Positions 29,639-39,034 of a stretch of 64,000 nt of DNA are shown in pieces; position 1 is the stretch's first letter, and each line of letters opens with the position of its first letter. The DNA is from Escherichia coli (GTDB taxonomy: Bacteria > Pseudomonadota > Gammaproteobacteria > Enterobacterales > Enterobacteriaceae), in NCBI RefSeq assembly GCF_050920415.1, contig NZ_CP169309.1. One strand, given 5' to 3'. Under the pieces are notes generated by a model, which worked only from the letters and a program-made list of their open reading frames with translations, had not been told where the DNA came from and ran no database searches. A program made the position numbers and the translations under genes.

Positions 29639-29698
29639 TGCCGGATGCGGTGTTAACGCTTCATCCGAGTTGGCATGGTAAGCGAAGCGCATCAGGCA
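29639..29698. repeat. REP-like (repetitive extragenic palindrome) sequence
   Basis: gccggatgcggtgttaacgcttcatccg closely resembles the REP consensus GCCGGATGCGGCGTGAACGCCTTATCCGGC; followed by ...gcgcatcaggca. Confidence 0.4.
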
Positions 29699-29720
29699 AT
29701 GTTGCATTTGCCATCAGTTA

Positions 29721-31591: not shown

Positions 31592-31939
31592 ATGAGCACC
31601 ACTATCGAAAAAATCCAACGCCAGATTGCTGAAAACCCGATCCTGCTGTACATGAAAGGTTCACCGAAACTGCCGAGCTGCGGTTTCTCTGCCCAGGCAG
31701 TCCAGGCGCTTGCCGCATGTGGCGAACGTTTTGCCTATGTTGATATCCTGCAGAATCCGGACATTCGTGCGGAACTGCCGAAATATGCTAACTGGCCGAC
31801 CTTCCCGCAACTGTGGGTTGACGGCGAGCTGGTCGGCGGTTGTGATATCGTGATCGAAATGTATCAGCGTGGCGAACTGCAGCAGCTGATCAAAGAAACT
31901 GCCGCTAAATACAAGTCTGAAGAGCCGGACGCTGAATAA
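31592..31939 (+). CDS. grxD: monothiol glutaredoxin Grx4
   Basis: 115 aa; CGFS active-site motif. Confidence 0.95.
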   Translation: MSTTIEKIQRQIAENPILLYMKGSPKLPSCGFSAQAVQALAACGERFAYVDILQNPDIRAELPKYANWPTFPQLWVDGELVGGCDIVIEMYQRGELQQLIKETAAKYKSEEPDAE

Positions 31940-31953
31940 TCCGTCCTGCAATA

Positions 31954-31988
31954 CTGACGGATGCGAACGGGCATCCGTCAGTCCTTTC
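31954..31988 (+). terminator. grxD terminator hairpin
   Basis: Stem ctgacggatgc-gaacgg-gcatccgtcag followed by tcctttctc. Confidence 0.55.
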
Positions 31989-31989
31989 T

Positions 31990-34900
31990 CTATCCCCAAT
32001 CCAGTCCTTGTGGCGAACTTGAAAATCCCGCCTCACGCAGCAGCGTAAACATCGGCGTTTGCCGGACCGGTAGGTCATTCACTTCTGTTAGCGTAAAGCG
32101 CAGCCGTGGTTCGCGACGCAGTGCGGTAGTCAGCGCGTGGAAAATCTCTGGGGCGAGTAATTCCTCTTTTTCCTGCCAGACCAGCATTTTTTTGCCACCT
32201 TGCGCCAGATAGAGTAACAATTTGCCGCCAGAAACGACCACCAGCGCACCCGCCCGACGCGTTGGTATCAGCGTTGCCGGATGTGCAGGCCAGGGCAGAA
32301 GATTTCCCCATGCATTAGCCGGATCGTTGGCAGAGAGCGCCACTGGTGTATAGTGGCGCGTTTGCGTGGCTTGTGTCGCCAGATCGCGCAATCGGTCAAT
32401 AGTCAGACGTTCAGCGAATTGCGCGCCACCCAGACTTTCTACAAAACGACCTCGCATAATTCGCCCGGAGTCTTCCATACTTCGACAAAGCGTTTGCATC
32501 GATGGAAACCCGCCAGGGATATTTTCGGCTATCACCGCCTGACGACTGATGATGCCGTAGCGGTCGAGCATATTTTCCGCCAGCGCCAGCATCCTTTCGG
32601 TATCGTTTAGTGGCTCCACCTGCAATAACGACCAGCGTCCAGCCAGATTTGGTGTGTTGTAAGATAGCAGCGGCGAGACGGGTTGCGCATAGACAGGACG
32701 TCCACGACGAGCCCGGTGGCTGCGACGAGTTGAGGTGCGTGTGTTGGTACTGCTGCGGGTGAGGGCGCGTAACGGTGCCCAAATGTCGCTGGTGATGACG
32801 CCTTGCCAGACCAGCGCCCATAACGCCTCTTGCAGGGCTGAGGGAGCAACCGATTCGTCGATTTTATCGCGTATCCGTTGGCTGATTTGTTGTGCAAACC
32901 AGGCTCCTCCGTCAGCCAGAACCGTGACTATCGCTTGCTGCAGCGCCGAACGATTCGCCTGATTCGCTTCGGCGGGAGTGAACGATTCTGCGGCATATTC
33001 CTGTAGATGCAGTGCCACCAGACCGTCATCTTCACCCAGTTTTTTTTGCCCCGACCAGATAACCGCACCGGTTGCCAGTAATTCATCGAGCATTTCTGGC
33101 GAATAGTCGCGTACGCGGGCAGGCAGGATCTGGCTTTCCCAGAGTGAGGCGGGTAAACCGACTCCGGCAAGCTGTTCGATCACCCGCACGACGCCATCCA
33201 CACCCTCATAAACGCCTGGCGATGTTGAGGCAAAGAGTGCCGGGCTACCATCGGTGGCGGGTAATACGCCCTGACGTTCCAGCAGCAATCGCGCATAGGT
33301 CGTGGCCGCAACGGGACGTGTCGCTTCTCTGGCGGCTTGCAGCGAGCGCAAACGCAGACGACGAAATACTTCATCGCTCACCCAGATGCCTTGTTGCAGA
33401 TTCATCACCAGCCCCTGTTCGCGCAGTTGCTGAAGTTGCTCTTCGACAATGGCAATACCGAGACTAAACTCATGAGCCAGTTGTTCAGACGTGACCAGAG
33501 CATGAGCCCGGAGATAGCGCAGAAAGAGGTCGCGAAGCGGGTAACTGACTCGGTGCAAATAAATCTCTGGCAGTGACTCTGGTAGTCGTACGCCGAGGGC
33601 ATCGCGCAGCCTGGCGGCATCATCCATACAGGCAAGACGCTCCTGCCCGCTAATCATCGTCGGGAAGATTCGTTTTACTGCAAGAAGATTTTCCAGATAC
33701 GACGCAATCTTTTCACTGCTGCCTGTATGCCGTTGCGCCAGGTCTTCAACGGTCATTGGCCCCAGTTCGCGCAGCAGGTCGAACAATCCTTCTTCACCTT
33801 TCGCTCTTCTACCAGAAGCCAGTCGTTGCAACTCTTCTTCCACCTGGCGAATGACCTGCGGGTCGAGTAATTCCCCCGGATCGACCTGTCCGAGTAGATT
33901 GCGCAGTAACTCGCTGTCCAGCGACAGTACGGATGCCCGGCGCTCTGCCAGCGGGGCGTCGCTCTGGTACATAAATTCCGCGACATAGCCGAACAATAAA
34001 CTGGCGGCGAAAGGCGAAGGCGTAGGGGTCGTTACATCGGATATTTGAATTTCGCCACCGTTCAGGCGACGCATCAAACGTTCCAGCGCGGGAAGATCAT
34101 AAACATCTTGCAGACATTCGCGTAGGGTTTCGAGAATGACCGGAAAATCCGGATATCCCTGAGCGATTTCCAGCAACTGACTGGCGCGTAGCCGTTGTTG
34201 CCAAAGCGGGGTGCGATGGCCCGGCGTGCGGCCCGGCATTAATAATGCCCGCGCGGCGCATTCGCGAAAACGGGCGGCGAAAAGTGCCGAGCTGCCTACC
34301 GCCTCGCGGACAATTTGCAGCAACTTTTCTGGTTCAAACAAAAAAATCGCGGCATCGGGCAATTTACCATCGGTGTCAGGAATGCGCGCAACAATGCCGT
34401 CATCACTGGCAACCACAGACGCGTCAGCGCCCCATAGTGCATGTATTCGCCCGGCAATCGCCAGCGCCCAGGGTTCATGCACCCGTCTTCCATAGGGAGA
34501 GTGCAAAATAATACGCCAGTCGCCAATTTCATCACGGCACCGTTCGAGGACCAGATGACGACTACCCGGAACGATGCCCGTCGCGTTGCGCTGCTCGTCA
34601 ATCAACCCCTGAATATTGGCGATCGTATTTTCTTCTGCCAACCACGGGGGAATAGTCCCGGAAAAGAACGCGCCATCCGCCAGTAAATGGAGAAAATCGC
34701 CGATCATCTCGCCTAATTCTGCCGGACGTCCGTTACCTTCACCACGCCAGAAGGGAAGGCGGGCAGAACGACCTGGAGCAGGAGTCACAATCACCTGATC
34801 GCGGGTGATTTGCTGGATCCGCCATGAGGTAGCGCCGAGAGTGATAATGTCGTTCACCCGCGACTCATATACCATCTCCTCATCCAGTTCACCCACCCGC

Positions 34901-36606
34901 CGCGAACCGGCCTGTTCTTCACCTTCGGGTAATAACACGCTATACATGCCACGATCCGGAATGGTGCCACCGCTGGTAACCGCCAACAGCTGAGCGCCAG
35001 GTCGGGCGGTCAATATCCCGGTCTCCCTGTTCCAGACCAGTTTTGGTCGAAAAGCAGAAAAATCGCCAGAGGGATAGCGCCCGGAAAGCATATCCAGCGT
35101 GGCGTCAAAAACACGTCTTGGCAGATCTTTCCACGGTGCGGCACGGCGTACGCGGGAGTACCATTCGTCTGCCTGTAATGCATCCATCGCCGCGGTGGCA
35201 ACGGTCTGCTGCGCAAGGACGTCGAGTGGATTATGCGGTGGTGTCAGGTTTTCCAGCCTGCCTGCGAACATACACTCAACAATGACTGCGGAATCGACTA
35301 AGTCACGCCTGGTTCGGGGGAAAAAAAGCCCTTTGGAGATACCACCTACCTGGTGTCCGGCACGTCCAATGCGTTGTAACCCACTGGCAACAGAAAGCGG
35401 CGTTGCCACCTGAATTACCAGATCCACCGCGCCCATATCAATCCCCAGTTCGAGACTGGAGGTTGCGACCACGCAGCGTAATTCACCCGATTTCAGCGCC
35501 TGTTCGGTGATGGCTCGTTGTTCTTTAGACACGGAGCCGTGGTGTGAGCGGGCAATAAAAATGTCGCTACTTTGTACACGGTTAGAGGTTGCGCCGGAGG
35601 TCGACTCGAAATGGGCCGCATCAACGGCGATAGACGGGGAACGCTGTAAGCGTGCGGCGTAAAGCTCATTCAATCGTGCCGTCAGTTTTTCCGCCAGCCC
35701 GCGTGAATTAGTAAAGACAATGGTCGAGCGATGGCGCAAAACTTCATCAAGGATACCCGTTTCAATATATGGCCAGATGGAGCCTTCTCGGCCGGCATGG
35801 CTGTCTTCGCCGGTGCCGCTGGCGACCGATGAGACATCATCCATATTGGCGACCGGTACGACAATCCGTATCTGCGGATGGCGCATTGCGGGCGGGTTGA
35901 CTACCGTAACCGGGCGATCGCCACCAAGAAATGCTGCCACATCGCTGGCTGAGCGTACAGTGGCAGAAAGGCCAATTCGCTGTGCTGAGGTGTGGAGCAG
36001 CGCATCGAGCCGCTCCAGACTTAACGCCAGATGCGCACCACGTTTACTGCCCGCTACCGCGTGGACTTCATCAATAATTACCGTTTCGACGCCGCGTAGC
36101 GTTTCGCGCGCGCGGGAGGTCAGCATCAGATAGAGTGATTCGGGTGTGGTGATCAGAATATCCGGCGGATTACGGGTGAGTTTGCTGCGTTCCTGTGCAG
36201 GCGTATCGCCAGTACGGATCCCCACGCGAAGATTGACTTCCGTTTCGCCGCGCCGCCGCCGTTCATCGGCAATACCCTGTAACGGGATCTGCAAGTTGCG
36301 CTGAACGTCGGTGCCCAGAGCTTTGATCGGTGAAATATAGAGAATGCGTGAGGTTTTACGCTTATGCGCCTCGCGGGTATCTTCGCCGCCTTCGCGGAAG
36401 AGCTGATCGAGGGCGTAGAGAAATGCTGCCAGCGTTTTCCCGGAGCCAGTCGGTGCAATCACCAGCGCATGTTCGCCTCGCGCCGCCACATGCCAGGTTT
36501 GCGACTGGACAGCGGTCGGCTGTTTAAAGGCGCGAAGAAACCAGTCGCGGGTCGCCGGTGAAAACACGTCCGGCAGGGGCGATGAAGGGTTTAGATTATC
36601 TGCCAT
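31990..36606 (-). CDS. lhr: ATP-dependent helicase Lhr (large helicase-related protein)
   Basis: 1538 aa; superfamily-2 helicase motifs (GSGKT, DEVH). Confidence 0.95.
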   Translation of the reverse strand: MADNLNPSSPLPDVFSPATRDWFLRAFKQPTAVQSQTWHVAARGEHALVIAPTGSGKTLAAFLYALDQLFREGGEDTREAHKRKTSRILYISPIKALGTDVQRNLQIPLQGIADERRRRGETEVNLRVGIRTGDTPAQERSKLTRNPPDILITTPESLYLMLTSRARETLRGVETVIIDEVHAVAGSKRGAHLALSLERLDALLHTSAQRIGLSATVRSASDVAAFLGGDRPVTVVNPPAMRHPQIRIVVPVANMDDVSSVASGTGEDSHAGREGSIWPYIETGILDEVLRHRSTIVFTNSRGLAEKLTARLNELYAARLQRSPSIAVDAAHFESTSGATSNRVQSSDIFIARSHHGSVSKEQRAITEQALKSGELRCVVATSSLELGIDMGAVDLVIQVATPLSVASGLQRIGRAGHQVGGISKGLFFPRTRRDLVDSAVIVECMFAGRLENLTPPHNPLDVLAQQTVATAAMDALQADEWYSRVRRAAPWKDLPRRVFDATLDMLSGRYPSGDFSAFRPKLVWNRETGILTARPGAQLLAVTSGGTIPDRGMYSVLLPEGEEQAGSRRVGELDEEMVYESRVNDIITLGATSWRIQQITRDQVIVTPAPGRSARLPFWRGEGNGRPAELGEMIGDFLHLLADGAFFSGTIPPWLAEENTIANIQGLIDEQRNATGIVPGSRHLVLERCRDEIGDWRIILHSPYGRRVHEPWALAIAGRIHALWGADASVVASDDGIVARIPDTDGKLPDAAIFLFEPEKLLQIVREAVGSSALFAARFRECAARALLMPGRTPGHRTPLWQQRLRASQLLEIAQGYPDFPVILETLRECLQDVYDLPALERLMRRLNGGEIQISDVTTPTPSPFAASLLFGYVAEFMYQSDAPLAERRASVLSLDSELLRNLLGQVDPGELLDPQVIRQVEEELQRLASGRRAKGEEGLFDLLRELGPMTVEDLAQRHTGSSEKIASYLENLLAVKRIFPTMISGQERLACMDDAARLRDALGVRLPESLPEIYLHRVSYPLRDLFLRYLRAHALVTSEQLAHEFSLGIAIVEEQLQQLREQGLVMNLQQGIWVSDEVFRRLRLRSLQAAREATRPVAATTYARLLLERQGVLPATDGSPALFASTSPGVYEGVDGVVRVIEQLAGVGLPASLWESQILPARVRDYSPEMLDELLATGAVIWSGQKKLGEDDGLVALHLQEYAAESFTPAEANQANRSALQQAIVTVLADGGAWFAQQISQRIRDKIDESVAPSALQEALWALVWQGVITSDIWAPLRALTRSSTNTRTSTRRSHRARRGRPVYAQPVSPLLSYNTPNLAGRWSLLQVEPLNDTERMLALAENMLDRYGIISRQAVIAENIPGGFPSMQTLCRSMEDSGRIMRGRFVESLGGAQFAERLTIDRLRDLATQATQTRHYTPVALSANDPANAWGNLLPWPAHPATLIPTRRAGALVVVSGGKLLLYLAQGGKKMLVWQEKEELLAPEIFHALTTALRREPRLRFTLTEVNDLPVRQTPMFTLLREAGFSSSPQGLDWG

Positions 36607-36698
36607 TAACGCTATTCCCCGTGAATATCATGCATGATGCGTGGAATAGCCTCACTATAGATGCCTGAATCATTGCATGTCATCAGGCATCGACTCGA

Positions 36699-37346
36699 TT
36701 ACACCTCTTCGGCGGCAGGTAGCGGCCAGCCTCCCAGACGTTTCCAGCGGTTGACGATTTCACAAAACAGCACAGCAGTGCGTTCGGTGTCGTACAGCGC
36801 GGAGTGCGCCTGGGTGCTGTCGAAGTCCATGCCAGCGGTCTGGCAAGCCTTTGACAATACGGTTTGTCCGAGTGCCAGCCCGGCCAGTGCAGCAGTGTCA
36901 AAAGTGGCGAAAGGGTGGAACGGGTTACGTTTCAGTGAGGCGCGTTCTGCGGCGGCCATCATAAAGCTGTGATCAAAATTGGCGTTGTGCGCCACCATAA
37001 TGGCGCGGTTACAGCCGCTCGCTTTAATGCCTTTACGTACAACTTTAAAAATTTCGTGCAGCGCCTCGTATTCGCTGACCGCGCCGCGATCGGGATCGTT
37101 CGGGTCAATGCCGTTGAAGGCGAGGGCCTCTGGCTGCAAATTTGCGCCGACAAATGGTTCTACGTGGAAATGTAATGTGGTGTCCGGCATCAGCCAGCCT
37201 TGTTCATCCATTTTCAGGGTGATGGCGGCAATCTCAAGCAGCGCATCGGTTTTAGCGTTAAATCCGGCTGTTTCAACATCGATCACAACAGGATAAAAAC
37301 CACGAAAACGGTCGCACAGACCGGTAAGTTGAGCGTTATCGGACAT
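36699..37346 (-). CDS. rnt: ribonuclease T
   Basis: 215 aa; DEDDh exonuclease. Confidence 0.95.
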
Positions 37347-37448
37347 CTGATTCTCTTAATACGGATAAATTGCAGCGCGCATTATGACAAATATTACTTG
37401 TCGATGCAGTAAAGATGCGGGCGCGATGAGTTCACGCCCGGCAGGAGA

Positions 37449-37856
37449 TTAGTTGCCCAGACCGCGACCGGCGTCTTTCTCTTCGATTAATTCAATTTTG
37501 TAACCGTCCGGATCTTCCACAAACGCGATAACCGTAGTGCCGCCTTTTACCGGACCCGCTTCACGGGTGACGTTACCGCCGTTCTGACGGATTTTTTCGC
37601 ACGCTTCAGCGGCGTTATCTACGCTAAGCGCGATGTGACCATAAGCAGTGCCGAGTTCGTATTTATCCACGCCCCAGTTGTAGGTCAGTTCAATCACCGC
37701 TTCTTCGGTTTCCGGGCCATAGCCAACAAACGCCAGTGAGTATTTGTATTCCGGGTTTTCGCTGGTACGCAGCAGTTTCATGCCCAGTACTTTGGTATAA
37801 AAATCGATGGAGCGTTGCAGATCGCCAACGCGCAGCATGGTATGAAGAAGACGCAT
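37449..37856 (-). CDS. gloA: glyoxalase I
   Basis: 135 aa; recognised GloA sequence. Confidence 0.95.
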
Positions 37857-37936: not shown

Positions 37937-39034
37937 TTACAGCGTCGGGTAATCGGTATAGCCTTCCGCGCCGCCACCGTAGAAACTTTCGGCACGCTGT
38001 GGGTTAAGCTCAGCTTTGCGCTGCAAGCGGGCAACCAGATCCGGGTTCGCAATCCAGTCACGACCAAATGCCACCGCATCAATTAACCCTTTGCCGATCA
38101 GCGTTTCAGCTTTTTCTACCGTGTATGCCCCTGCGCCGATAATCGGACCGTGGAAACGGGCACGTACTTTTTCGCGGAACGCATCAGTATACGGTTCACC
38201 TCCCGCCCAATCTGGTTCTGACATATGCAGATAAGCAATGCCGCGTTTGCCCAGTTGTTCAATCAGATACAGTGCATCGGCTTCTTCATTTGGGCCATTA
38301 TCCGTGTTCTGGAAAGTACCGATTGGCGAAACACGAATGCCAATGCGATCGGCACCCCATTCTTCAATCCCGGCATCGACCACTTCCAGCACCAGACGTG
38401 CGCGATTTTCCACGCTGCCGCCGTACTGATCGGTACGATGGTTTGAAGAAGGAGAAAGGAACTGATGCAGTAAATAACCGTGAGCAGAGTGTAGCTCCAC
38501 CAGATCAAACCCAGCTTCACGGGCGTTAGCGATGGCCTGGCGGAAATCATTGACGATGCCCGGAATCTCTTCCCGTTCCAGTGCTCGTGGCATGGATGTT
38601 TCAACGCGGATCGCCTGACCTTTTTCATCGCGCAGAGAAGTACGCGTTCCCGCGCTAAGTGCAGAAGGCGCTACCGGTGCCTGACCGCCAGGCTGCAGGC
38701 TGGCGTGAGAAATTCGCCCCGTGTGCCACAGCTGCACGGCCATATGACCATTTTCAGCATGAACGCCAGCGGTGATTTTTTTCCATGCGGCAATTTGCTC
38801 CGGACTATGGATGCCAGGCGCGCCTGCATATCCTTTTGCCTGGGCGGAAATTTGCGTGGCTTCGCTAATAATCAAACCGGCACTGGCTCGTTGGCGATAG
38901 TATTCCGCCATCAACGGGGTAGGGATGTCACCCGGTTCAATACTGCGCAGACGCGTCAGCGGTGCCATAAAAATACGGTTTGCCGCCGTGATCGCGCCCA
39001 CTTTCAGTGGGGAATACAGTTTTTCAGATGACAT
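37937..39034 (-). CDS. nemA: N-ethylmaleimide reductase (old yellow enzyme family)
   Basis: 365 aa; recognised NemA sequence. Confidence 0.95.

What the first reader, a model, noticed from the sequence alone, without database searches (positions are those of the whole stretch)
36607..36698. Two stable hairpins in the 92-nt rnt-lhr spacer, one overlapping the lhr ribosome-binding site
On the minus-strand transcript, just after the rnt stop, there is a 9-bp stem (gatgcctga / tcaggcatc, 36660-36691). A second inverted repeat follows (gctattcc / ggaatagc, 36611-36650) enclosing the perfect palindrome ATCATGCATGAT. Its 3' arm overlaps the GGGGA Shine-Dalgarno 11 nt upstream of the lhr ATG. Neither hairpin has a U-tract, so they look like processing or translational-control structures rather than terminators. 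They may uncouple lhr expression from the highly expressed rnt.
Basis: inference. Interest (0 to 1): 0.25.

Follow-up and report, generated by a model that had tools for sequence, protein, structure and literature searches.

The report
Conserved RNA hairpins between rnt and lhr
The short gap between the E. coli genes for RNase T and the Lhr helicase holds two real, evolutionarily maintained RNA hairpins; the second one buries the ribosome-binding site of lhr and most likely keeps this dispensable helicase at a low level, which is an ordinary kind of gene control.

Summary
Both inverted repeats exist exactly where stated. Two perfect repeats of at least 8 bp appear in 0.02% of shuffled spacers. 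The window is E. coli, with nemA-gloA-rnt-lhr on the minus strand. The spacer has no Rfam match, no terminator signature, and no mapped 3' end or transcription start in two published K-12 data sets.

Of 80 Enterobacterales rnt loci, only Escherichia carry lhr after rnt. The others have rnt followed by a bidirectional terminator and convergent grxD. So lhr and its spacer replaced that terminator.

Within the E. coli/E. albertii clade the spacer is far more conserved than neighbouring four-fold sites (5/92 against 25-38%). A lineage as distant as Citrobacter (L086) keeps both hairpins: 4/34 stem changes against 27/58 elsewhere, with G-C to A-U and A-U to G.U to G-C series. E. fergusonii keeps and lengthens hairpin 2.

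Opening the lhr ribosome-binding site costs about 14-16 kcal/mol, against 4-7 for rnt, gloA, nemA and grxD.

The translational-control reading is therefore supported for hairpin 2. Hairpin 1 is a weakly REP-like stem 7 nt after the rnt stop, and its role is less certain. The "perfect palindrome" is strain-specific. This is an ordinary mechanism and a modest finding.

The parts
36699..37346 (-). rnt (RNase T, 215 aa), upstream gene of the operon
   Evidence: NCBIfam TIGR01298, 383 bits; annotated rnt in 5425 E. coli genomes
37374..37374 (-). Published rnt transcription start, 28 nt upstream of the rnt ATG. It is mapped here by sequence identity with K-12. It is the only start reported between gloA and grxD.
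   Evidence: Kim et al. 2012 TSS table (PMC3415461 supplement); the 51-nt flank matches window 37424-37374
36607..36698 (-). 92-nt rnt-lhr intercistronic spacer, under purifying selection as a whole
   Evidence: 0-5 differences per 92 nt across the E. coli/E. albertii clade, where flanking four-fold sites differ by 9-38%
36660..36691 (-). Hairpin 1: 9-bp stem GAUGCCUGA/UCAGGCAUC with a 14-nt loop, starting 7 nt after the rnt stop codon
36611..36650 (-). Hairpin 2: 8-bp core GCUAUUCC/GGAAUAGC. It has two further inner pairs (36640-36641 with 36620-36621) and a weak 3-bp outer extension (36652-36654 with 36607-36609).
36616..36620 (-). GGGGA Shine-Dalgarno-like element of lhr (-14..-10), buried in the 3' arm of hairpin 2
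   Evidence: read from the sequence; paired in the MFE and consensus structures; opening energy
36627..36638 (-). Palindrome ATCATGCATGAT in the hairpin 2 loop; strain-specific, not conserved
36654..36683 (-). Sigma-70 promoter-like match: -35 ATGACA (36678-36683, in the hairpin 1 loop), an 18-nt spacer, and -10 TATAGT (36654-36659). It is a candidate only.
   Evidence: 10/12; chance 0.02 per shuffled spacer; absent in L086, E. fergusonii and Citrobacter; no TSS reported there
36612..36683 (-). 23-codon ORF (MTCNDSGIYSEAIPRIMHDIHGE*) running from the hairpin 1 loop to a TAG inside the hairpin 2 3' arm; considered and judged non-coding
   Evidence: read: all seven substitutions inside it in the E. 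coli clade are nonsynonymous, there is no SD, and the frame is not kept in L086 or E. fergusonii
31990..36606 (-). lhr (ATP-dependent helicase, 1538 aa), downstream gene
   Evidence: NCBIfam NF007284, 3374 bits, full length
31953..31982 (+). 12-bp hairpin between the lhr stop and the grxD stop. It coincides with the published grxD 3' end and replaces the ancestral rnt/grxD bidirectional terminator.

Best explanation
The spacer is the structured intercistronic region of a two-gene transcript that starts at the rnt promoter. It arose when lhr was inserted between rnt and the bidirectional terminator that rnt originally shared with grxD. Hairpin 2 pairs a leader motif (GCUAUUCC) with the Shine-Dalgarno region (GGAAUAGC inside GGGGAAUAGC). 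Ribosomes therefore load on lhr only rarely, and Lhr synthesis is set far below that of RNase T although both are on one mRNA. Hairpin 1 sits 7 nt after the rnt stop codon, where lhr-less relatives have the terminator hairpin. It most likely acts as a structural insulator at the 3' end of rnt. In that role it would block 3'-exonucleases once the poorly translated lhr part of the message is cut or prematurely terminated. It would also stop ribosomes leaving rnt from moving on to lhr. Shown: the structures, their conservation, strand-specific G.U-tolerant covariation, and the predicted occlusion of the ribosome-binding site. Inferred: the effects on translation and mRNA decay.
For: Co-transcription of rnt and lhr is stated in PMC8301817, which cites Reuven et al. 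1995. The only TSS in the interval is the rnt TSS, and there are no 3' ends in the spacer. Both hairpins are more stable than shuffles and jointly improbable by chance. They are recovered by RNAalifold. 97.4% of cells are paired with 0/500 shuffles as high. The HP2 pair 55-88 runs A-U / G.U / G-C, and the HP1 pair 11-42 runs G-C / A-U. HP1 is also kept in five Citrobacter-type spacers, with U-A to G-C and wobble changes. The G.U and U.G variants (L086, L095, L091, L099) are tolerated only on the sense RNA strand. Against L086, 4/34 stem positions differ versus 27/58 elsewhere (Fisher p = 0.0006). Within the E. coli clade, 1 of 13 variable columns is in a stem, and that change keeps the pair. 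The spacer is much more conserved than four-fold sites, for example p = 8e-7 for E. albertii. The RBS opening energy is 14.4-16.0 kcal/mol for lhr in the Escherichia types, against 4.2 (rnt), 6.6 (gloA), 4.0 (nemA) and 5.5 (grxD). It falls to 9-10 when the 5' arm is absent. In two lhr-dead lineages hairpin 2 is weakened or lost while hairpin 1 is kept. L095 has C-G changed to U.G. L096 has a 15-nt deletion that removes the 5' arm.
Against: There is no direct measurement of lhr translation, mRNA ends or decay here. Only three to four independent lineages carry hairpin 2, so the covariation rests on few events. Shuffling the upstream sequence still gives about 10-11 kcal/mol of opening cost, because the G-run also pairs with a CCCC run in early lhr codons, so hairpin 2 adds only about 5-7 kcal/mol. 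Loops and linker are also conserved in the E. coli clade (5/58, p = 0.0014), which structure alone does not explain. Term-seq shows no stable 3' end at hairpin 1, which argues against a strong exonuclease barrier under those conditions. E. fergusonii has replaced hairpin 1, and the Citrobacter types lack hairpin 2.
Confidence: 0.5

Rival explanations
1. The conserved sequence is mainly a DNA-level control region. It would hold an internal sigma-70 promoter for lhr (-35 ATGACA in the hairpin 1 loop, -10 TATAGT just after hairpin 1), perhaps with the hairpin 1 palindrome as an operator. Hairpin 2 would then be the 5'-terminal stem-loop of a separate lhr mRNA.
For: There is a 10/12 promoter-like match, found in 2% of shuffled spacers. 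Loops and linker, including both hexamers, are invariant across the E. coli/E. albertii clade. The homologous Citrobacter-type spacers carry an invariant LexA-box-like site, TACTGTATATTTGACCAGTA. It matches 15-16/20 consensus positions, as good as the K-12 lexA and uvrA boxes. This implies that a promoter lies inside the spacer in those relatives.
Against: Kim et al. 2012 list no transcription start between the rnt TSS and the grxD TSS. The promoter-like match is absent in L086, E. fergusonii and Citrobacter, although L086 keeps both hairpins. The G.U-tolerant, strand-specific covariation argues for RNA-level selection on the stems. The literature reports co-transcription with rnt.
Confidence: 0.15
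2. Hairpin 1 is a decayed REP-type (repetitive extragenic palindrome) element. [quoted passage not shown]
For: The core GCCUGAU...AUCAGGC is the base of Z-type REP stems (K-12 examples). The C. amalonaticus version is the best hit of a covariance model built from 9 K-12 REPs across 131 kb (15.2 bits, E 0.055). The stem starts 4-7 nt after the rnt stop in every lineage that has it. REPs closer than 16 nt to a stop codon are reported to reduce translation (Liang, Rudd and Deutscher 2015, as summarised in PMC12306157).
Against: The E. coli hairpin scores only 8.7 bits (E 4.6). It lacks the CTAC tail and the GCGACGC upper stem. It is single-copy in every genome. No 3' end is mapped at it.
Confidence: 0.12
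3. The hairpins are functionless leftovers of the insertion event that brought lhr in, for example end sequences of the inserted segment.
For: The spacer has no counterpart in the 77 lhr-less rnt loci. lhr itself is dispensable: it is internally deleted in 1040 of 5426 complete E. coli genomes.
Against: There is strong purifying selection on the spacer. Both stems are retained, with pair-preserving changes, in L086, where four-fold sites are about 50% diverged.
Confidence: 0.06
4. A 23-codon upstream ORF (36612-36683), which ends 5 nt before the lhr ATG, is translated. It would couple lhr translation to itself by melting hairpin 2.
For: The ORF is open in all seven E. coli-clade haplotypes, and its stop codon lies inside the 3' arm of hairpin 2.
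Against: There is no Shine-Dalgarno sequence before its ATG, which sits in the hairpin 1 loop. All seven substitutions inside it are nonsynonymous. The frame and start are not conserved in L086 or E. fergusonii, although the hairpins are.
Confidence: 0.04

Closest known systems
Ribosome-binding-site-occluding stem-loops that set unequal translation of genes on one polycistronic mRNA (ORF-specific structure, translational operators)
   Same: The Shine-Dalgarno bases are paired to an upstream complementary segment in a local hairpin. The predicted opening cost is several-fold higher than for the neighbouring genes. The structure is kept by compensatory changes.
   Different: No trans-acting ligand, protein or sRNA is known. 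Repression appears constitutive. It is lineage-specific (Escherichia-type spacers only), and no expression data are available.
REP/BIME elements in intercistronic regions (for example malE-malF), acting as 3'-exonuclease barriers and, when closer than 16 nt to a stop codon, as translation dampers (Liang, Rudd and Deutscher 2015, cited through PMC12306157)
   Same: Hairpin 1 shares the GCCUGA(U)...(A)UCAGGC stem base. It lies directly after a stop codon inside an operon and has no U-tract.
   Different: It is single-copy and has a short 9-bp stem without the REP upper stem or CTAC tail. It gets a sub-threshold score with a REP covariance model (8.7 bits), and no mapped 3' end sits at it.
The ancestral rnt/grxD bidirectional intrinsic terminator (AAAAAAAGCGACC-loop-GGUCGCUUUUUU) of lhr-less Enterobacterales
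   Same: It occupies the same position, immediately after the rnt stop codon.
   Different: There is no sequence similarity and no U-tract. Transcription continues into lhr.
LexA-controlled DNA-repair genes (SOS boxes)
   Same: The homologous spacer of the Citrobacter amalonaticus/farmeri-type rnt-lhr loci carries a near-consensus SOS box.
   Different: The E. coli spacer, and indeed the whole 64-kb window, has no CTG-N10-CAG site with at least 14/20 matches to the consensus.

Membership tests
SD-sequestering (translational repressor) hairpin | Shine-Dalgarno bases are base-paired in the favoured structure | tested here: met
   The MFE, centroid and RNAalifold consensus all pair 4 of the 5 GGGGA bases. 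The opening cost is 14.4-16.0 kcal/mol against 4.0-6.6 for four neighbouring genes.
SD-sequestering (translational repressor) hairpin | The structure is maintained in evolution by pair-preserving changes | tested here: met
   Pair 55-88 runs A-U / G.U / G-C and pair 59-84 runs C-G / U.G. 98.6% of helix 2 cells are paired. Only 3-4 independent lineages are available.
SD-sequestering (translational repressor) hairpin | Disrupting the stem raises translation and restoring it lowers translation | not testable with these tools
   This needs reporter fusions. The only natural hint is a 15-nt deletion of the 5' arm in a strain whose lhr is already a pseudogene.
REP (repetitive extragenic palindrome) | Match to the REP sequence and structure consensus | tested here: not met
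   With a covariance model built from 9 K-12 REPs, E. coli hairpin 1 scores 8.7 bits (E 4.6). The C. amalonaticus homologue is borderline at 15.2 bits (E 0.055).
REP (repetitive extragenic palindrome) | Many dispersed copies per genome | tested here: not met
   There is one place per genome in 5425 genomes. The motif TGCCTGA-N8-24-TCAGGCA occurs once in the 64-kb window.
REP (repetitive extragenic palindrome) | Extragenic position close to the 3' end of a gene | tested here: met
   The stem starts 7 nt after the rnt stop, and 4-7 nt after it in the other lineages.
Intrinsic (Rho-independent) terminator | GC-rich stem followed by a U-tract | tested here: not met
   No terminator-like site lies in the spacer. 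The tails are UAUAGUGA and GUUAAUGG.
Intrinsic (Rho-independent) terminator | RNA 3' ends map at the hairpin | tested here: not met
   The Adams et al. 2021 Term-seq tables list 1728279(+) after gloA, then 1733706/7(-) after grxD, and nothing in between. This is limited to their conditions and thresholds.
Sigma-70 promoter (internal lhr promoter) | -35 and -10 hexamers with 16-18 nt spacing | tested here: inconclusive
   ATGACA-18-TATAGT matches 10/12. The chance is 0.02 per shuffled spacer. It is not present in L086, E. fergusonii or Citrobacter.
Sigma-70 promoter (internal lhr promoter) | A mapped transcription start | tested here: not met
   The Kim et al. 2012 table goes from the rnt TSS (1726343) directly to the grxD TSS (1732157). 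Other TSS data sets were not held.
LexA (SOS) operator | CTG-N10-CAG with a high match to TACTGTATATATATACAGTA | tested here: not met
   There is none in the E. coli-type spacers or anywhere in the window at 14/20 or better. It is present (15-16/20) in all five Citrobacter-type spacers.
Any curated RNA family (Rfam 15) | Covariance-model hit | tested here: not met
   Nothing in the spacer even at E <= 10.

The most novel reading that the evidence does not exclude
The spacer is a two-state switch. Read-through transcripts from the rnt promoter carry the intact hairpin 2 and are translationally silent for lhr. A conditional internal promoter has its -10 (TATAGT) ending 3 nt before the 5' arm. 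It would start transcripts inside that arm and so produce lhr mRNA with a freed ribosome-binding site. The predicted opening cost falls from about 16 to about 10 kcal/mol for starts at 36647-36648. This RNA-based arrangement would have replaced the LexA-operator control that the Citrobacter-type spacers still carry.
Probability: 0.08. Interest if true: 0.5.

Novelty: new member of a known kind. Interest (0 to 1): 0.28.

Why it matters
Lhr is a large DNA-repair helicase whose physiological role in E. coli is still unclear, and nothing is known about how its expression is set. It matters to know three things. It rides on the rnt transcript. Its ribosome-binding site is locked in a conserved hairpin. 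Its relatives in Citrobacter instead carry an SOS box in the same spacer. Together these give concrete, testable handles on when Lhr is made. They also show how a horizontally inserted gene was fitted into a host operon after deleting that operon's terminator. The mechanism itself (RBS occlusion plus a post-stop hairpin) is textbook, so the general significance is modest.

Tried and rejected
- **Rfam:** a scan at E <= 10 found nothing in the spacer.
- **Terminator reading:** rejected. There is no U-tract and no Term-seq 3' end.
- **Palindrome as operator:** the "perfect palindrome" ATCATGCATGAT is polymorphic within E. coli and imperfect in K-12 and E. albertii, so it is rejected as an operator.
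- **REP membership of hairpin 1:** tested with a covariance model built from K-12 REPs. The score is sub-threshold for E. coli and borderline for Citrobacter. The RefSeq K-12 record as served here lists no REP features at all, even at malE-malF, so the lack of annotation is uninformative.
- **23-codon uORF:** rejected as coding. All changes are nonsynonymous, there is no SD, and it is not conserved.
- **LexA box in E. coli:** absent.
- **Conserved SD sequestration in Citrobacter-type spacers:** their C-rich tracts do not raise the opening cost above shuffles.
- **Literature look-ups that failed:** Reuven 1995, Liang 2015, Thomason 2015, Li 2014, Schmidt 2016 and Weaver 2019 are not held. The supplements of the Cappable-seq, SMRT-Cappable-seq, Rend-seq annotation, Dar and Sorek, Conway and RepRanger papers are not held, are truncated, or have no entry for this locus.
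- **Metagenome scan:** not run. Any pattern general enough to find new variants would be swamped by E. coli, and any pattern that excludes E. coli fixes the stem bases and so cannot reveal covariation.

Full report
**What is in the window.** The region is E. coli chromosome. A 501-nt query around the site is 100% identical to NZ_CP033635 and is present in 5425 of 5426 complete E. coli genomes. On the minus strand lie nemA (37937-39034), gloA (37449-37856), rnt (36699-37346) and lhr (31990-36606). All four are confirmed by full-length NCBIfam matches, and the order is the same as in K-12. Convergent grxD lies at 31592-31939. The rnt-lhr spacer is 92 nt (36607-36698).

**Checking the observation.**
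  - Hairpin 1 is GAUGCCUGA/UCAGGCAUC: 9 bp, a 14-nt loop, -14.6 kcal/mol, z = -3.1.
  - Hairpin 2 is GCUAUUCC/GGAAUAGC: an 8-bp core plus two inner pairs across an A.G mismatch, a 24-nt loop, -15.4 kcal/mol, z = -2.9.
- Two non-overlapping perfect repeats of at least 8 bp occur in 1 of 5000 dinucleotide shuffles of the spacer.
- GGGGA occupies -14..-10 relative to the lhr ATG, and four of its five bases are paired in hairpin 2.
- Neither stem has a U-tract, and the terminator scan finds nothing in the spacer.
- One correction. The "perfect palindrome" ATCATGCATGAT in the hairpin 2 loop is a property of this haplotype (1873 genomes). K-12 and 2279 genomes have ATCCTGCATGAT, and E. albertii has ATCATGTATGAT.

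**Where the spacer comes from.** I fetched 80 rnt loci, one per species, from Enterobacterales. Only the Escherichia loci have lhr after rnt. In nearly all the others the rnt stop is followed within a few bases by a canonical bidirectional terminator (AAAAAAAGCGACC-loop-GGTCGCTTTTTT) and then by the 3' end of convergent grxD.

Full-length Lhr relatives above 70% identity exist only in three groups:
- Escherichia;
- the Citrobacter amalonaticus/farmeri group;
- Phytobacter.

The first two have rnt-lhr-grxD synteny, whereas Phytobacter lhr sits elsewhere. So lhr, its leader and a new hairpin after its stop (31953-31982) replaced the ancestral terminator. That new hairpin coincides with the published grxD 3' end. 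As a result, rnt transcription now runs into lhr. The literature agrees: PMC8301817, citing Reuven et al. 1995, states that rnt and lhr are co-transcribed. In the Kim et al. 2012 TSS table the rnt start, 28 nt upstream of the ATG (window 37374), is followed directly by the grxD start, with no start for lhr. The Term-seq tables of Adams et al. 2021 list a 3' end after gloA and one after grxD, and none in the spacer.

**Conservation.** Within the E. coli/E. albertii clade the spacer is much better conserved than four-fold degenerate sites of the flanking genes:

| Comparison with the window | Spacer differences | Four-fold site divergence | Binomial p |
|---|---|---|---|
| E. albertii | 5/92 | 25% (rnt), 38% (lhr) | 8e-7 |
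| L002 | 3/92 | 14-30% | not repeated here |
| Escherichia sp. E4694 (L097) | 0/92 | 9-23% | not repeated here |

- Of 13 variable columns in seven haplotypes, only one lies in the 34 core stem positions. That change is C-G to U.G (p = 0.02).
- The unpaired positions are also constrained (5/58 against 25%, p = 0.0014). Something beyond the two stems is therefore under selection, and I cannot say what.

**Covariation.** Three deeper lineages are informative.
- **L086.** This metagenomic contig comes from an organism about as far from E. coli as Citrobacter is: rnt is 84-86% identical and four-fold sites are about 50% diverged. It still has a 92-nt spacer with both hairpins. 4/34 stem positions differ against 27/58 elsewhere (Fisher p = 0.0006). 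Of the four stem changes, two form a compensatory G-C to A-U pair at the base of hairpin 1. One turns A-U into G.U in hairpin 2. One opens the loop-closing pair of hairpin 1.
- **E. fergusonii.** Its rnt-lhr block is a foreign mosaic: nemA-gloA is 96.8% identical to K-12, but rnt is only about 81%. At the same hairpin 2 pair it has G-C, completing an A-U / G.U / G-C series. It also lengthens the stem to 10 bp (CUGUUCCUCC/GGGGGAACAG). Hairpin 1 is replaced there by a different 9-bp hairpin.
- **Five Citrobacter-type spacers (142-146 nt).** These keep hairpin 1 as GCCUGAUAA/UUAUCAGGC, with U-A to G-C, C-G to U.G and A-U to G.U variants. They lack the 3' arm of hairpin 2.

On the alignment of nine Escherichia-type spacers, 97.4% of cells are paired and 0/500 shuffles reach that value. 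All slid controls stay at or below 46%. RNAalifold predicts both helices without guidance. The tolerated G.U pairs would be C.A mismatches on the other strand, which points to selection on the sense RNA. The number of independent events is small, so this is supportive rather than conclusive.

**What hairpin 2 does.** Forcing -15..+6 of lhr single-stranded costs 14.4-16.0 kcal/mol in E. coli, E. albertii, L086 and E. fergusonii. The same calculation gives 4.2 for rnt, 6.6 for gloA, 4.0 for nemA and 5.5 for grxD. Transcripts that begin after the 5' arm need 9-10 kcal/mol. So hairpin 2 contributes about 6 kcal/mol, and a second, downstream CCCC run supplies the rest. Shuffling the upstream sequence gives 9.6-11.6 (the observed value was exceeded in 0-6 of 40 shuffles), so the effect is real but moderate. 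Citrobacter-type spacers show no excess over shuffles. The dedicated SD-occluding hairpin is therefore an Escherichia-type innovation. It was built on an older leader motif: GCTATTC(T/C) is also present in Citrobacter, and CTATTCTG in Phytobacter.

**What hairpin 1 does.** It starts 7 nt after the rnt stop (4-7 nt in the other lineages), the place where lhr-less genomes have their terminator stem. Its base (GCCUGAU/AUCAGGC) is that of Z-type REPs. However, a covariance model built from nine K-12 REPs gives it only 8.7 bits (E 4.6). The C. amalonaticus version reaches 15.2 bits (E 0.055), the best hit in 131 kb. Hairpin 1 is single-copy and lacks the CTAC tail. I therefore do not file it as a REP. 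It may work like one, either as a 3'-exonuclease barrier for the rnt part of the message or, being closer than 16 nt to the stop, as a brake on terminating ribosomes (Liang et al. 2015 as summarised in PMC12306157). The absence of a Term-seq 3' end weighs against a strong barrier. This part of the explanation is inference.

**Rivals.**
- **Internal promoter.** The match (-35 ATGACA in the hairpin 1 loop, 18 nt, -10 TATAGT; 10/12) occurs by chance in 2% of shuffled spacers. It would explain why loops and linker are conserved. However, it is missing in L086, E. fergusonii and Citrobacter, and no TSS is reported there.
- **SOS control.** The Citrobacter-type spacers carry an invariant SOS-box-like site, TACTGTATATTTGACCAGTA. 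It matches 15-16/20 consensus positions, equal to the K-12 lexA and uvrA boxes. In 290 kb of background, no site other than those known K-12 boxes reaches 14/20. lhr probably has its own LexA-controlled promoter in those species. E. coli has no such box.
- **Upstream ORF.** A 23-codon ORF from the hairpin 1 loop to a TAG inside hairpin 2 is open in the E. coli clade. It shows only nonsynonymous changes and is not conserved further out.

**Natural experiments.** lhr is dispensable. 1040 of 5426 complete genomes carry a stop at codon 34 and an internal deletion of about 4.4 kb, while keeping the spacer. One such lineage comprises 193 genomes, including the type strain ATCC 11775. It has a stronger hairpin 1 (one extra U-A pair) and a weakened hairpin 2 (C-G to U.G). 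A strain with an lhr pseudogene has lost the hairpin 2 5' arm through a 15-nt deletion but kept hairpin 1. This fits hairpin 1 serving rnt and hairpin 2 serving lhr, but it rests on two anecdotes.

**Verdict.** This is a new, lineage-restricted example of a familiar mechanism, so interest is modest.

Noticed in passing
L093 3295-3523 (E. coli AR_0081); corresponds to window 31990-36606: lhr is reduced to a remnant of about 229 nt (stop at codon 34 plus an internal deletion of about 4.4 kb; annotated as 'endonuclease' and 'ATP-dependent helicase' pseudogenes). The contiguous deletion junction is present in 1040 of 5426 complete E. coli genomes, and the rnt-lhr spacer is retained.
   Followed up: yes
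L083 2907-2926; also L088, L091, L092, L099 spacers: All five Citrobacter amalonaticus/farmeri-type rnt-lhr spacers contain an invariant LexA-box-like site, TACTGTATATTTGACCAGTA. It matches 15-16/20 consensus positions, as good as the K-12 lexA and uvrA boxes, which suggests lhr is an SOS gene there. E. coli has no such site.
   Followed up: partly
L004-L081 (rnt loci), about 5-60 nt after the rnt stop: Most lhr-less Enterobacterales share a highly conserved bidirectional terminator, AAAAAAAGCGACC-loop-GGTCGCTTTTTT, between convergent rnt and grxD. It is missing in every genome that carries lhr.
   Followed up: partly
L082 (E. fergusonii) 578-2913: This is a mosaic locus. nemA-gloA is 96.8% identical to E. 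coli K-12, but the adjacent rnt is only about 81-83% identical to any Escherichia or Citrobacter rnt, and Lhr is 73% identical to the E. coli protein. There appears to be a recombination breakpoint between gloA and rnt, so the rnt-lhr block seems to have been imported as a unit.
   Followed up: partly
window 31953-31982: A 12-bp hairpin (ACTGACGGATGC/GCATCCGTCAGT) lies between the lhr and grxD stops. On the grxD strand it is followed by CCTTTCTCT and coincides with a strong published Term-seq 3' end (K-12 1733706/7, minus strand).
   Followed up: partly
L096 (E. coli CFSAN004176) spacer: This natural 15-nt deletion (TGAGGCTATTCCACG) removes the 5' arm of hairpin 2. It occurs in a strain whose lhr is annotated as a truncated pseudogene.
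   Followed up: partly
window 29642-29701: There are two adjacent weak hits of the REP covariance model (14.6 and 13.8 bits), for example CATTGCCTGATGCGC...GCTTACCATGCCAAC. They look like a degenerate REP/BIME remnant. The 64-kb window otherwise contains no canonical REP.
   Followed up: no
L084 2950-3000 and L089 (Phytobacter lhr, not next to rnt): The lhr leader shares CTATTCTG and ACAGGGAG(C/A) with the Citrobacter-type spacers although the upstream gene differs. These motifs therefore travel with lhr and predate or are independent of the rnt junction. GCTATTC is the 5' arm of hairpin 2 in E. coli.
   Followed up: partly
window 37418-37440 and 37374: The hairpin after gloA (CGGGCG...CGCCCG followed by CATCTTTACT) matches a published Term-seq 3' end (K-12 1728279). 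The published rnt TSS lies about 45 nt downstream of it. So rnt-lhr is a transcription unit separate from nemRA-gloA.
   Followed up: partly
E. coli genome searches: One copy of the rnt-lhr junction lies on a record classified as a plasmid, and one complete genome of 5426 lacks the region altogether.
   Followed up: no
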